Notes under the pieces: model-generated
Database searches by the model: none
Told to the model about the DNA's origin: nothing
The model's input: only the letters and a program-made list of their open reading frames with translations
Virus record (IMG/VR): IMGVR_UViG_3300023487_000099
DNA length: 5,393 nt
Source: a virus
Lineage: Duplodnaviria > Heunggongvirae > Uroviricota > Caudoviricetes
Reading direction: 5' to 3' (one strand)
Program-made: the position numbers and the translations under genes
Shown: positions 1,223-5,393 of the stretch, one piece after another
How the letters are laid out: each line of letters begins with the position of its first letter
Position numbering within the stretch: position 1 is the first letter of the stretch

Positions 1223-1233
1223 GTGGGGTGAAT

Positions 1234-4200
1234 ATGGCAGTAAAGATTTCAGGTGTACTGAAAGACGGCACAGGAAAACCGGTACAGAACTGCACAATCC
1301 AGCTGAAAGCAAAACGTAACAGCACCACGGTGGTGGTGAACACGCTGGCCTCAGAAAATCCGGATGAAGCCGGGCGTTACAGCATGGACGTTGAGTACGG
1401 GCAGTACAGCGTTATTCTGTTGGTGGAGGGATTCCCGCCGTCACATGCCGGGACCATCACCGTGTATGAAGATTCCCGACCCGGTACGCTGAATGATTTT
1501 CTCGGTGCCATGACGGAGGATGATGCCCGTCCTGAGGCACTGCGCCGTTTTGAACTGATGGTGGAAGAGGTGGCGCGTAACGCGTCCGCGGTGGCACAGA
1601 ACACGGCAGCCGCGAAGAAGTCAGCCAGCGATGCCGGCACATCAGCCCGTGAGGCGGCAACCCATGCGACTGATGCTGCAGGCTCAGCAAGCGCAGCCAG
1701 CACGTCAGCCGGACAGGCCGCGTCGTCGGCTCAGTCAGCATCTTCCAGCGCAGGAACGGCATCAACAAAGGCCAGTGAAGCATCGAAAAGTGCTGCTGCT
1801 GCAGAGTCCTCAAAAAGCGCGGCAGCTACCAGTGCCGCTGCGGCGAAAACGTCAGAAACGAATGCGGCAGCGTCACAACAATCAGCAGCCACTTCTGCAT
1901 CCGCCGCGACCACGAAGGCGTCAGAAGCAGCCACCTCAGCCCGGGATGCGGCGGCCTCAAAAGAAACGAACGCATCATCGAGCGCCAGTAGTGCCGCTTC
2001 CTCGGCAACGGCGGCAGGCAATTCCGCGAAGGCGGCAAAGACGTCTGAGACAAACGCCAGGTCTTCTGAAACGGCAGCGGAACAGAGTGCCTCAGCTGCG
2101 GCAGGCTCAAAAACAGCGGCTGCGTCGTCTGCCAGTGCAGCGTCAACAAGTGCCGGGCAGGCCTCAGCCAGTGCTAGCGCCGCCGGAAAATCGGCAGAAA
2201 GCGCCGCATCGTCCGCTTCAACAGCCACAACGAAGGCTGGCGAAGCCACTGAACAGGCCAGCGCAGCAGCGAGGTCTGCTTCCGCAGCGAAGACATCCGA
2301 GACGAACGCGAAAGCGTCGGAAACCAGCGCAGAATCCTCAAAAACGGCTGCCGCATCGTCCGCCAGTTCGGCGGCGTCATCGGCATCATCGGCGTCTGCT
2401 TCAAAAGATGAGGCGACCAGACAGGCATCAGCAGCGAAAGGCAGCGCCACGACGGCATCCACGAAGGCGACAGAGGCAGCTGGTAGTGCGACGGCAGCAG
2501 CTCAGAGCAAAAGTACGGCAGAATCTGCAGCAACGCGCGCTGAGACAGCGGCAAAACGGGCAGAGGATATTGCATCCGCCGTGGCGCTTGAGGATGCGAG
2601 CACGACGAAAAAGGGGATAGTACAGCTCAGCAGTGCGACCAACAGCACGTCTGAAACGCTGGCGGCAACGCCAAAGGCAGTAAAAGCAGCCTATGACAAT
2701 GCAGAGAAACGTCTGCAGAAAGACCAGAACGGCGCTGATATACCTGATAAGGGACGCTTCCTGAACAACATTAACGCGGTCAGTAAAACAGACTTTGCTG
2801 ATAAGCGTGGTATGCGTTATGTGCGGGTTAACGCTCCTGCAGGTGCAACATCTGGAAAATATTACCCTGTTGCTGTTATGCGTTCTGCTGGCTCAGTAAG
2901 CGAACTGGCATCAAGGGTCATTATCACCACGGCAACGCGAACCGCAGGCGATCCGATGAATAACTGCGAGTTTAACGGATTTGTTATGCCTGGTGGCTGG
3001 ACTGACAGGGGGCGTTATGCTTATGGAATGTTCTGGCAATATCAAAACAATGAACGAGCCATCCACTCAATAATGATGAGTAATAAGGGCGATGATTTGC
3101 GCTCTGTGTTCTATGTTGATGGCGCTGCTTTCCCTGTTTTTGCGTTTATCGAAGATGGCCTGTCAATATCCGCACCTGGTGCTGATCTCGTTGTTAATGA
3201 TACGACCTATAAGTTTGGGGCAACAAATCCGGCGACTGAATGTATCGCGGCGGACGTTATCCTTGATTTTAAGAGTGGGCGTGGTTTTTATGAGTCTCAT
3301 TCGTTAATCGTTAACGATAACTTGTCGTGCAAAAAACTTTTTGCCACAGACGAAATTGTAGCGCGTGGTGGTAATCAGATTCGAATGATAGGTGGGGAGT
3401 ATGGGGCATTATGGCGTAATGATGGCGCTAAAACTTACCTGCTGCTTACCAATCAAGGTGATGTTTATGGTGGCTGGAATACATTAAGACCGTTTGCTAT
3501 TGATAACGCAACCGGCGAACTGGTTATTGGAACCAAACTGTCCGCAAGTCTGAACGGTAATGCATTAACAGCAACAAAGCTGCAAACGCCAAGACGGGTT
3601 TCTGGTGTTGAGTTTGATGGTTCCAAAGATATTACTTTAACCGCCGCGCATGTGGCTGCTTTTGCCAGAAGGGCAACGGATACATATGCCGATGCGGATG
3701 GGGGCGTTCCCTGGAATGCCGAATCAGGCGCTTATAAGGTCACCCGCTCTGGCGACAGCTATATTCTGGTTAACTTCTATACCGTAGTCGGAAGTTGCCG
3801 GACCCTGCAGATGAAGGCGCATTACAGAAATGGTGGTCTGTTCTACCGTTCTTCAAGAGACGGTTATGGTTTTGAGGAAGACTGGGCAGAAGTTTATACT
3901 TCGAAAAATCTTCCACCAGAAAGCTACCCAGTCGGCGCACCAATCCCGTGGCCATCAGATACCGTTCCGTCTGGTTATGCCCTGATGCAGGGGCAGACTT
4001 TTGACAAATCTGCCTACCCGAAACTTGCAGCCGCTTATCCGTCAGGCGTGATCCCTGATATGCGTGGCTGGACGATTAAGGGCAAGCCCGCCAGTGGTCG
4101 TGCCGTATTGTCACAGGAACAGGACGGCATTAAATCGCACACCCACAGCGCCAGCGCATCCAGTACGGATTTGGGGACGAAAACCACATCGTCGTTTGAT

Positions 4201-4566
4201 TACGGCACTAAATCCACGAATAACACTGGTGCGCATATCCATAGTGTTAGCGGTACGGCTGCTTCAGCCGGTGCACATACCCATTCGATGACATTTGTTT
4301 CAGGTGGTTCCAGTGGTGCTCCGGGAAGTGGATCACCTGATTATTCTAAATACAGTGTTAACACTTCTTCTGCAGGCGCTCATACGCACTCTGTATCGGG
4401 TACTGCTGCAAGCGCAGGTGCACACGCACATACTGTCGGTATTGGTGCTCATACGCACTCCGTTGCGATTGGTTCACATGGACATACCATCACCGTTAAC
4501 GCTGCTGGTAACGCGGAAAACACCGTCAAAAACATCGCATTTAACTATATTGTGAGGCTTGCATAA
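1234..4566 (+). CDS. stf: Side tail fibre protein Stf (long, ~1110 aa, Rac StfR-like)
   Basis: N-terminus [37 protein letters not shown]… is the conserved lambda Stf N-terminal domain. A conserved fibre motif [25 protein letters not shown] follows the repeat block. The C-terminal part has the collar-like motif GAPIPWPSD…[17 protein letters not shown], then His-X-His repeats, and ends …[11 protein letters not shown] as lambda Stf does. The track starts the ORF at GTG 1228, but ATG 1234 reproduces the lambda N-terminus and has GGGG upstream. Stop TAA at 4564-4566. Confidence 0.93.
1579..2605 (+). repeat. Ala/Ser/Thr-rich low-complexity imperfect tandem-repeat block inside stf (fibre shaft)
   Basis: About 340 codons are dominated by A/S/T/K/E. 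The heptapeptide KTSETNA recurs at nt 1848-1868, 2038-2058 and 2290-2310, and phrases such as [16 protein letters not shown] and TKA(S/G/T)EA recur. Hand-counted GC is about 65% in one 60-bp line (2161-2220), reflecting GCN/AGC codons. Confidence 0.7.
4138..4485 (+). repeat. Seven His-X-His motifs in the Stf C-terminal tip (predicted metal-binding needle domain)
   Basis: Translation contains SHTHS, GAHIHS, GAHTHS, GAHTHS, GAHAHT, GAHTHS and SHGHT, which is seven HxH motifs between nt 4138 and 4485. Confidence 0.7.
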
Positions 4567-5141
4567 TGGCATTCAGAATGAGTGAACAACCACGGACCAT
4601 AAAAATTTATAATCTGCTGGCCGGAACTAATGAATTTATTGGTGAAGGTGACGCATATATTCCGCCTCATACAGGTCTGCCAGCAAACAGTACCGATATT
4701 GCACCGCCAGATATTCCGGCTGGCTTTGTGGCTGTTTTCAACAGTGATGAGGCATCGTGGCATCTCGTTGAAGACCATCGGGGTAAAACGGTTTATGACG
4801 TAGCGTCAGGGGACGAGTTATTTATTTCTGAACTCGGTCCGTTACCGGAAAATGTTACCTGGTTATCGCCGGAAGGGGAGTTTCAGAAGTGGAACGGCAC
4901 AGCCTGGGTGAAGGATACGGAAGCAGAAAAACTGTTCCGGATCCGGGAGGCGGAAGAAACAAAAAACAGCCTGATGCAGGTAGCCAGTGAGCATATTGCG
5001 CCGCTTCAGGATGCTGCAGATCTGGAAATTGCAACGGAGGAAGAAATCTCGTTGCTGGAAGCATGGAAAAAGTATCGGGTATTGCTGAACCGTGTTGATA
5101 CGTCAACTTCACAGGATATTGAATGGCCAGCACTGCCGTAG
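4566..5141 (+). CDS. tfa: Tail fibre assembly protein Tfa (chaperone), 191 aa
   Basis: [54 protein letters not shown]… matches lambda Tfa nearly residue for residue as I recall it. The ATG at 4566-4568 overlaps the stf TAA (TAATG), with GAGG at 4554-4557. Stop TAG at 5139-5141. Confidence 0.9.
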
Positions 5142-5238: not shown

Positions 5239-5393
5239 TTATATGTCAGGTGTCTGAAGTTTTGCTTTGGCTCTTAAAATGGTTTGCCGCGAGGTTTTGA
5301 ATTCCCGGGCAATGGCACTTATACTTACACTTGACTTAATTCGTTCGAATACCACCTGTTTCTGTTCTTCATTTAACACAGGTGGTCGACCAA
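5239..5393 (-). CDS. pin: Serine recombinase, Pin/Hin/Gin-like DNA invertase, C-terminal HTH domain only (3' end; gene continues beyond the window end)
   Basis: Minus-strand translation of 5391→5239 reads [50 protein letters not shown]. The GRP…helix-turn-helix tail is typical of small serine recombinases and invertases, and it is convergent with tfa, as pinR follows stfR-tfaR in Rac to my recollection. Only 50 codons are visible, so the call rests on the C-terminal domain alone. Confidence 0.72.

What the first reader, a model, noticed from the sequence alone, without database searches (positions are those of the whole stretch)
4138..4485. Seven HxH motifs at the Stf tip, the same number as metal sites reported for the T4 gp37 needle
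The C-terminal 120 residues carry exactly seven His-X-His motifs spaced along the chain. In the T4 long-tail-fibre tip (gp37), HxH motifs from three chains coordinate a column of iron ions in the trimeric needle, and my recollection is that there are seven. The same count here suggests a homologous metal-stabilised needle forming the receptor-binding tip, chaperoned by the downstream Tfa.
Basis: partly seen in the sequence, partly recalled or inferred. Interest (0 to 1): 0.45.

Follow-up and report, generated by a model that had tools for sequence, protein, structure and literature searches.

The report
Prophage tail-fibre tip, T4 gp37-type needle
The seven His-x-His motifs are real and lie in the tip of an E. 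coli Rac/lambda-type prophage side tail fibre that is 69% identical to the solved iron-studded needle of the phage T4 long tail fibre, so this is a correct reading of an already well-known structure.

Summary
Observation confirmed. The 1112-aa Stf ORF (1228-4566) has exactly seven HxH motifs at residues 971, 1003, 1017, 1052, 1066, 1075 and 1084 (nt 4138-4485). They hold all 14 His of the last 152 residues. No shuffle out of 100,000 reached seven.

Interpretation supported, by homology rather than by the count. The last 215 residues match the T4 gp37 tip crystal structure (PDB 2XGF) at E = 1e-88 and 69% identity. All seven motifs align with gp37 H883/915/929/966/980/989/998. The spacings are identical (32, 14, X, 14, 9, 9), and only the head loop X differs (35 vs 37 residues, about 33% identity). 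Published work reports seven Fe ions in that needle, each held by HxH from three chains.

The downstream Tfa is 95% identical to lambda Tfa and 30% identical to T4 gp38.

Seven is not a family constant. Lambda Stf has eight, and relatives have five to ten, with outgoing and returning modules added in pairs, as a hairpin needle requires.

The window is a Rac/Qin-type E. coli prophage (J-lom-stf-tfa-pin), found in more than 1,000 complete genomes. Trimer geometry and metal content could not be tested here.

Verdict: already known, low interest.

The parts
1228..4566 (+). stf, the side tail fibre gene. It is 1112 aa from GTG 1228. RefSeq relatives start at the ATG equivalent to 1234, which gives 1110 aa. 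The stop is TAA at 4564-4566.
   Evidence: ORF list. Pfam: phage_tail_N at residues 3-136, Gp34_trimer at 659-758, Collar at 903-950, Phage_fiber repeat at 1047-1060. Annotated as stfR in E. coli genomes that are 97% identical.
3919..4137 (+). Collar-equivalent segment, residues 898-970. It aligns to gp37 residues 811-882.
   Evidence: 83% identity to T4 gp37. Pfam Collar PF07484. The alignment to 2XGF begins here.
4138..4284 (+). Outgoing needle strand, residues 971-1019. It carries HxH 1-3 (971, 1003, 1017) and one SFDYGTK unit.
   Evidence: 73% identity to gp37 883-931. The HxH align with gp37 H883, H915 and H929.
4285..4380 (+). Variable head loop between HxH 3 and HxH 4, residues 1020-1051. 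This is the presumed receptor-binding head.
   Evidence: Only ~33% identity to gp37 932-965 and 23% to the lambda head. The HxH3-to-HxH4 spacing ranges from 33 to 70 residues among relatives while the flanks stay fixed. T4 receptor-contact residues lie in the homologous stretch (PMC6957217).
4381..4485 (+). Returning needle strand, residues 1052-1086. It carries HxH 4-7 (1052, 1066, 1075, 1084).
   Evidence: 69% identity to gp37 966-1000. The HxH align with gp37 H966, H980, H989 and H998.
4486..4563 (+). Conserved C-terminal tail, residues 1087-1112 (...[26 protein letters not shown]).
   Evidence: 88% identity to gp37 1001-1026. The distance from the last HxH to the C-terminus is identical in all 245 intact relatives.
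4566..5141 (+). tfa, the tail fibre assembly chaperone (191 aa). Its ATG overlaps the stf stop codon (TAATG).
   Evidence: Pfam Caudo_TAP, E = 1.2e-42. 95% identical to lambda Tfa. 30% identical to T4 gp38, E = 1e-18. The C-terminus matches Mu assembly protein U, PDB 5YVQ. The junction sequence is shown.

Best explanation
The region encodes the distal tip of the side tail fibre (Stf) of a Rac/Qin-type lambdoid prophage of E. coli. The tip is a member of the T4 gp37 / lambda Stf receptor-binding-tip family.

By homology to the gp37 crystal structure, three chains each run out from a collar, form a small head, and run back. Together they make a six-stranded needle. At seven levels along the threefold axis, one HxH motif from each chain supplies two imidazoles. 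The six His at each level bind one metal ion octahedrally; in T4 the metal is Fe(II). These ions rivet the thin needle together.

The divergent 32-residue loop between HxH 3 and HxH 4 forms the head and sets receptor specificity. The overlapping downstream gene tfa encodes the chaperone needed to trimerise the tip.

Shown here: the motifs, the homology, the preserved register and the chaperone homology. Inferred: the trimeric geometry, the metal and its identity, and the receptor.
For: - Seven HxH at the stated coordinates, far above chance.
- Match to PDB 2XGF (T4 gp37 tip) at E = 1.1e-88, or 1.1e-106 with a profile. Identity is 69% overall: 83% collar, 73% and 69% for the two needle strands, 88% C-terminal tail.
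- All seven motifs align with gp37 H883/915/929/966/980/989/998, with spacings 32, 14, X, 14, 9, 9 in both proteins.
- All 14 His are invariant or at least 90% conserved across 38 relatives.
- gp37 G964, reported to need a small side chain next to H929, is conserved as G1050.
- Published facts: seven Fe along the gp37 needle, and Ala substitution of H929 or H931 is lethal (PMC6957217). The octahedral six-His HxH iron sites in 2XGF and in other fibres and spikes are described in PMC6116203.
- Independent sequence test of the hairpin topology: in 242 of 245 intact relatives, the outgoing inter-motif length minus the returning length stays at 13-16 residues while the outgoing length varies from 32 to 56. 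Each extra 10-residue SFDYGTK unit on the outgoing strand is matched by one extra 9-residue IGAHxHxV unit on the returning strand. The 14-residue SGTAASAG unit is present on both strands or on neither.
- Tfa is 95% identical to lambda Tfa and homologous to gp38. Lambda Tfa is reported to substitute for gp38 (PMC9659904).
- Gene order is J-lom-stf-tfa-pin, 97% identical to annotated E. coli prophages.
Against: - No trimer model or metal measurement was possible. The monomer AlphaFold2 model had pLDDT 45.4 and pTM 0.17. This is expected for an obligate intertwined trimer, and it gives no support either way.
- The metal identity is taken entirely from T4 and other HxH proteins. T4 gp12 has an HxH site that holds Zn in its crystal.
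- Rac-type prophages are often defective, so expression of this fibre in its host has not been shown.
- The head loop is too diverged from T4 and lambda to infer the receptor.
Confidence: 0.93

Rival explanations
1. The fold is gp37-like, but the HxH sites in this protein hold a different metal (Zn, Ni or Co), or only some of the seven are occupied.
For: HxH sites are not strictly iron-specific. T4 gp12 shows Zn at an HxH site, though possibly because of how it was reconstituted (PMC6116203). Nothing in the sequence specifies the metal.
Against: At 69-73% identity to the gp37 needle, with identical spacing and conserved neighbouring residues, the coordination shells should be nearly identical to those that hold Fe in 2XGF. 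Iron is the usual occupant in gp37, P2 gpV, phi92 gp138 and the R-pyocin fibres.
Confidence: 0.08
2. The conserved GxHxH units matter mainly as 'His-box' recombination sites. On this view they are conserved islands, at DNA and protein level, that let head domains be swapped between fibres, rather than metal ligands.
For: The segment between HxH 3 and HxH 4 is hypervariable, with spacings of 33-70 residues, while the flanks are constant. Phage nucleotide hits typically split into two pieces flanking the head. The His-box recombination idea for T-even gp37 (Tetart and Krisch, 1990s) is cited from my own knowledge and was not found in the paper library.
Against: The two roles are not exclusive. 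The crystal structure shows that the His are metal ligands, and H929A and H931A are lethal in T4. Conservation falls on the His residues themselves, and the out/back lengths are matched. That argues for a structural constraint, not only a DNA one.
Confidence: 0.05
3. The gene is a silent relic of a defective prophage. The motif pattern is inherited but no functional fibre is made.
For: Rac and Qin prophages are commonly defective (my own knowledge). The window shows only the tail-fibre end of the prophage.
Against: stf (1112 aa) and tfa (191 aa) are both intact, with no frameshift or premature stop, unlike lambda PaPa's split orf401/orf314. All 14 His and the C-terminal tail are preserved. This rival concerns expression, not what the sequence encodes.
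Confidence: 0.15

Closest known systems
Bacteriophage T4 long tail fibre distal subunit gp37, receptor-binding tip (PDB 2XGF)
   Same: Collar, needle and C-terminal tail are 69-88% identical. All seven HxH align with the same spacings (32, 14, X, 14, 9, 9). The C-terminal ...[15 protein letters not shown] is the same. A homologous chaperone gene lies immediately downstream.
   Different: The head loop is 2 residues shorter and only ~33% identical. Most T4 residues reported as critical for OmpC/LPS binding are changed: I933 to M, N937 to S, G940 to S, G943 to A, S947 to G, Y949 to G. Everything upstream of the collar is unrelated, because this is a lambdoid siphovirus side fibre and not a myovirus long fibre.
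Phage lambda (Ur-lambda) side tail fibre Stf (orf401/orf314 in lambda PaPa) with Tfa
   Same: The N-terminal domain family (PF08400) and the J-lom-stf-tfa gene order are shared. The needle strands are 83-84% identical and Tfa is 95% identical.
   Different: Lambda has eight HxH (spacings 42, 14, 48, 14, 9, 9, 9): one extra SFDYGTK unit on the outgoing strand and one extra IGAHxH unit on the returning strand. Its head is longer and unrelated (23% identity). The window protein is longer overall, and its middle carries extra Gp34_trimer-like and Mu S-like segments.
E. coli Rac/Qin prophage StfR/StfQ, TfaR/TfaQ and PinR/PinQ
   Same: The whole window is 97% identical at the DNA level to loci annotated stfR/tfaR/pinR (or tfaQ/pinQ), next to ydfK, uspF and ompN. 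At least 80% of the window is present in 1,192 of 5,426 complete E. coli genomes.
   Different: Allelic differences only (2-3% at DNA level). No record in the collection covered the whole window at more than 97.6% identity.
Other HxH iron sites in trimeric phage fibres and spikes (R1/R2 pyocin fibres, P2 gpV, phi92 gp138)
   Same: The chemistry is the same: three HxH motifs give six His around one octahedral Fe on the threefold axis (PMC6116203).
   Different: Those proteins have a single site and no detectable sequence homology to this tip. Here seven sites are stacked in a hairpin needle.

Membership tests
T4 gp37 / lambda Stf receptor-binding tip (collar-needle-head) | Significant sequence homology to the solved gp37 tip across the collar and both needle strands | tested here: met
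   2XGF matched at E = 1.1e-88 (phmmer) and 1.1e-106 (profile). Identity is 69% over 222 aligned residues.
T4 gp37 / lambda Stf receptor-binding tip (collar-needle-head) | HxH motifs at the positions of the iron-coordinating histidines, in the same register | tested here: met
   Motifs at 971/1003/1017/1052/1066/1075/1084 align with gp37 883/915/929/966/980/989/998. Spacings are 32, 14, 35, 14, 9, 9 here and 32, 14, 37, 14, 9, 9 in gp37.
T4 gp37 / lambda Stf receptor-binding tip (collar-needle-head) | Conserved C-terminal tail (...[15 protein letters not shown]) at a fixed distance from the last HxH | tested here: met
   88% identical to gp37. The distance from the last HxH to the C-terminus is the same in all 245 intact relatives.
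T4 gp37 / lambda Stf receptor-binding tip (collar-needle-head) | Hairpin (out-and-back) needle topology | tested here: met
   Tested indirectly. Outgoing and returning segment lengths co-vary: the difference is 13-16 residues in 242 of 245 relatives, and modules are added in pairs. This was not tested on a 3D model.
T4 gp37 / lambda Stf receptor-binding tip (collar-needle-head) | Homotrimer with His pairs lining the threefold axis in octahedral sites | not testable with these tools
   The monomer AF2 model was poor (pLDDT 45.4). No coordinates are returned by the tools.
T4 gp37 / lambda Stf receptor-binding tip (collar-needle-head) | Bound iron (seven per trimer) | not testable with these tools
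   This needs metal analysis of purified protein. It is known for T4 only from the literature.
T4 gp37 / lambda Stf receptor-binding tip (collar-needle-head) | Dedicated gp38/Tfa-type assembly chaperone encoded immediately downstream | tested here: met
   tfa at 4566-5141 overlaps the stf stop codon. Pfam Caudo_TAP, E = 1.2e-42. It is 95% identical to lambda Tfa and 30% identical to gp38.
Lambdoid side tail fibre Stf (lambda Stf / Rac StfR) | N-terminal prophage tail-fibre domain (PF08400) and the gene order J - lom - stf - tfa | tested here: met
   PF08400 at residues 3-136, E = 1.5e-71. Lom (PF06316, E = 3e-121) is encoded at 570-1169. The end of J lies upstream. The locus is annotated this way in 97%-identical genomes.
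Pfam PF03335 Phage_fiber (14-residue tail-fibre repeat) | Score above the gathering threshold | tested here: inconclusive
   21.9 bits against a cut-off of 20, E = 1.6e-4, with only one stretch at 1047-1060 around HxH 4 and no stretch passing on its own. Precomputed PF03335 hits are present on most relatives.

The most novel reading that the evidence does not exclude
The head loop of this allele (residues 1020-1051, the 35-residue spacing class) may define a receptor specificity different from T4 gp37 (OmpC/LPS) and Ur-lambda Stf (OmpC). More generally, the needle may be a modular ruler whose length, and so its number of metal sites (five to ten), is changed by adding matched out/back units. 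As far as I could find, that regularity has not been described explicitly.
Probability: 0.3. Interest if true: 0.25.

Novelty: already known. Interest (0 to 1): 0.1.

Why it matters
It matters little as a discovery. That lambdoid Stf tips are homologous to the T4 gp37 tip, that lambda Tfa can replace gp38, and that the gp37 needle is held together by seven His-coordinated iron ions are all textbook or published facts.

The practical value is in annotation. The last ~215 residues of this StfR-type protein can be labelled with confidence as a gp37-type collar-needle-head tip. The receptor-determining head can be placed at residues 1020-1051. That is useful for host-range engineering of lambda-based particles, which swap exactly this module together with its Tfa.

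Tried and rejected
1. AlphaFold2 of the 223-residue tip as a monomer with a 38-sequence alignment gave mean pLDDT 45.4 and pTM 0.17. This is too poor for a fold search, so none was run. It is expected for an obligate intertwined trimer.
3. The primary structure paper (Bartual et al. 2010, PNAS) is not held in the library, by DOI or by PMC id. The seven-iron statement is therefore cited from papers that report it.
4. A search for 'His boxes' found no paper using the term. That lead rests on my own knowledge.
5. I looked for inverted repeats that could mark an invertible tail-fibre segment served by the neighbouring pin gene. Nothing convincing appeared in the window.
6. I considered that 'seven' itself is diagnostic and rejected it. 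Lambda has eight, and relatives have five, six, eight or ten.
7. The overlapping ORFs in other frames across 4064-4555 and 1631-2620 were treated as by-products of the repeat composition and were not pursued as genes.

Full report
**What the window is.** The window holds, on the + strand:
- the 3' end of a J-like tail-tip gene;
- lom (570-1169; Pfam Ail_Lom, E = 3e-121);
- a 1112-aa side tail fibre gene stf (1228-4566; RefSeq relatives start at the ATG equivalent to 1234);
- tfa (4566-5141; Pfam Caudo_TAP).

On the minus strand it holds the last 45 codons of a pin-type recombinase (5257-5393).

The whole window is 97-97.6% identical to E. coli chromosomal loci annotated gpJ / Ail-Lom / stfR / tfaR (or tfaQ) / pinR (or pinQ), which sit next to ydfK, uspF and ompN. 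At least 80% of the window is present in 1,192 of 5,426 complete E. coli genomes. It is a Rac/Qin-type lambdoid prophage.

**Checking the observation.** Stf has exactly seven HxH motifs, at residues 971, 1003, 1017, 1052, 1066, 1075 and 1084. These correspond to nt 4138-4485, exactly as stated.
- The motifs use all 14 His of the last 152 residues; the whole protein has 20 His.
- Shuffles of that C-terminal segment give a mean of 1.19 motifs and never reach seven (0 of 100,000).
- Whole-protein shuffles give a mean of 0.34 (0 of 20,000).
- The only slip is that the motifs occupy the last ~142 residues, not the last 120.

**What it is.** A search of all PDB sequences with the last 312 residues returns the T4 gp37 receptor-binding tip (2XGF) at E = 1.1e-88, covering residues 898-1112. 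With a family profile the E-value is 1.1e-106.
- In a three-way alignment with T4 gp37 and lambda orf314, the window is 69% identical to gp37 and 79% identical to lambda.
- All seven HxH align one-to-one with gp37 H883, H915, H929, H966, H980, H989 and H998.
- Spacings are 32, 14, 35, 14, 9, 9 here and 32, 14, 37, 14, 9, 9 in T4.

| Segment | Identity to gp37 |
|---|---|
| Collar | 83% |
| Outgoing needle | 73% |
| Head loop (between motifs 3 and 4) | 33% |
| Returning needle | 69% |
| C-terminal tail | 88% |

- Across 38 relatives, all 14 His are invariant or at least 90% conserved.
- gp37 G964, reported to need a small side chain next to the H929 iron site, is kept as G1050.

**What the literature says about the template.** The gp37 needle carries seven coordinated iron atoms, and alanine substitution of H929 or H931 abolishes plaque formation (PMC6957217). 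The HxH motif from three chains gives an octahedral six-His iron site in 2XGF, the R-pyocin fibres, P2 gpV and phi92 gp138 (PMC6116203). [quoted passage not shown] Lambda Tfa can replace gp38 in folding gp37 (PMC9659904).

**An independent sequence test of the needle topology.** I surveyed 261 relatives: 120 from the 90%-identity cluster search and 141 more from the 50%-identity representative search. Of these, 245 have intact tips, and they fall into discrete classes.

| HxH count | Spacings | Example |
|---|---|---|
| 5 | 32, X, 9, 9 | |
| 6 | 42, X, 9, 9, 9 | |
| 7 | 32, 14, X, 14, 9, 9 | this protein, T4 gp37 |
| 8 | 42, 14, X, 14, 9, 9, 9 | lambda Stf |
| 10 | 62, 14, X, 14, 9, 9, 9, 9, 9 | one protein (P0185) |

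- Each extra 10-residue SFDYGTK unit on the outgoing strand is matched by one extra 9-residue IGAHxHxV unit on the returning strand.
- The 14-residue SGTAASAG unit is present on both strands or on neither.
- The outgoing length minus the returning length stays at 13-16 residues in 242 of 245 proteins.
- The HxH3-to-HxH4 spacing (X) varies freely, from 33 to 70 residues.

This is what an out-and-back hairpin needle with a terminal head requires. It also shows that seven is a class property and not a family constant.

**The chaperone.** tfa begins at the ATG that overlaps the stf stop codon (TAATG). Its product is 95% identical to lambda Tfa and 30% identical to T4 gp38 (E = 1e-18). Its C-terminus matches the Mu assembly protein U, PDB 5YVQ.

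**What could not be tested.** A monomer AlphaFold2 model was uninformative (pLDDT 45.4). No tool returns coordinates or handles metals. The trimeric geometry, the metal occupancy and the metal identity are inferred from 69% identity to a crystal structure. That is a strong inference but not a measurement. The receptor is unknown, because most T4 residues reported as critical in the head are replaced here.

**Verdict.** The feature is already known: an allele of E. coli prophage StfR carrying a gp37-type iron-needle tip and its Tfa chaperone. Interest is low. The only mildly new points are the paired-module length classes of the needle and the possibly distinct specificity of this head variant.

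Noticed in passing
Relatives P0121-P0261 and window 4138-4485: The needle is modular. Relatives carry 5, 6, 7, 8 or 10 HxH. Each added 10-residue SFDYGTK unit on the outgoing strand is matched by one added 9-residue IGAHxHxV unit on the returning strand. The 14-residue SGTAASAG unit occurs on both strands or on neither. Only the spacing across the head loop between the strands (33-70 residues) varies freely.
   Followed up: partly
window 3655-3936 (Stf residues ~810-903): The segment just upstream of the collar matches the phage Mu tail fibre protein S (PDB 8JU3, residues 323-415, E = 2.8e-20). Residues 659-758 match Pfam Gp34_trimer. The fibre shaft is therefore a mosaic of modules also found in myovirus fibres.
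   Followed up: no
window 1600-2700: The Ala/Ser/Thr-rich repetitive shaft region of Stf (roughly residues 120-500) produces long spurious ORFs in other frames and on the opposite strand (1631-2620 +, 329 aa; 1731-2462 -, 243 aa). Lambda's annotated orf206b lies in the equivalent place.
   Followed up: no
window 5257-5393, minus strand: These are the last 45 codons of a Pin-type serine recombinase ([45 protein letters not shown]), annotated pinR/pinQ in relatives. No inverted-repeat crossover sites that would mark an invertible tail-fibre segment were found inside the window.
   Followed up: partly
window 1228-1236 and 4562-4568: The mechanical ORF starts at GTG 1228 (MNMAVK...). RefSeq relatives and lambda start at the ATG two codons later (MAVKISG...). 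The stf stop and the tfa start overlap as TAATG, which suggests translational coupling.
   Followed up: partly
L001 (T4 record OZ209023.1), gp37 residue 939: This T4 genome record reads Ile at gp37 position 939 (WNGIGVGG), where the 2XGF chain has Thr (wngtgvgg). This is a strain or mutant difference inside the receptor-binding head.
   Followed up: no
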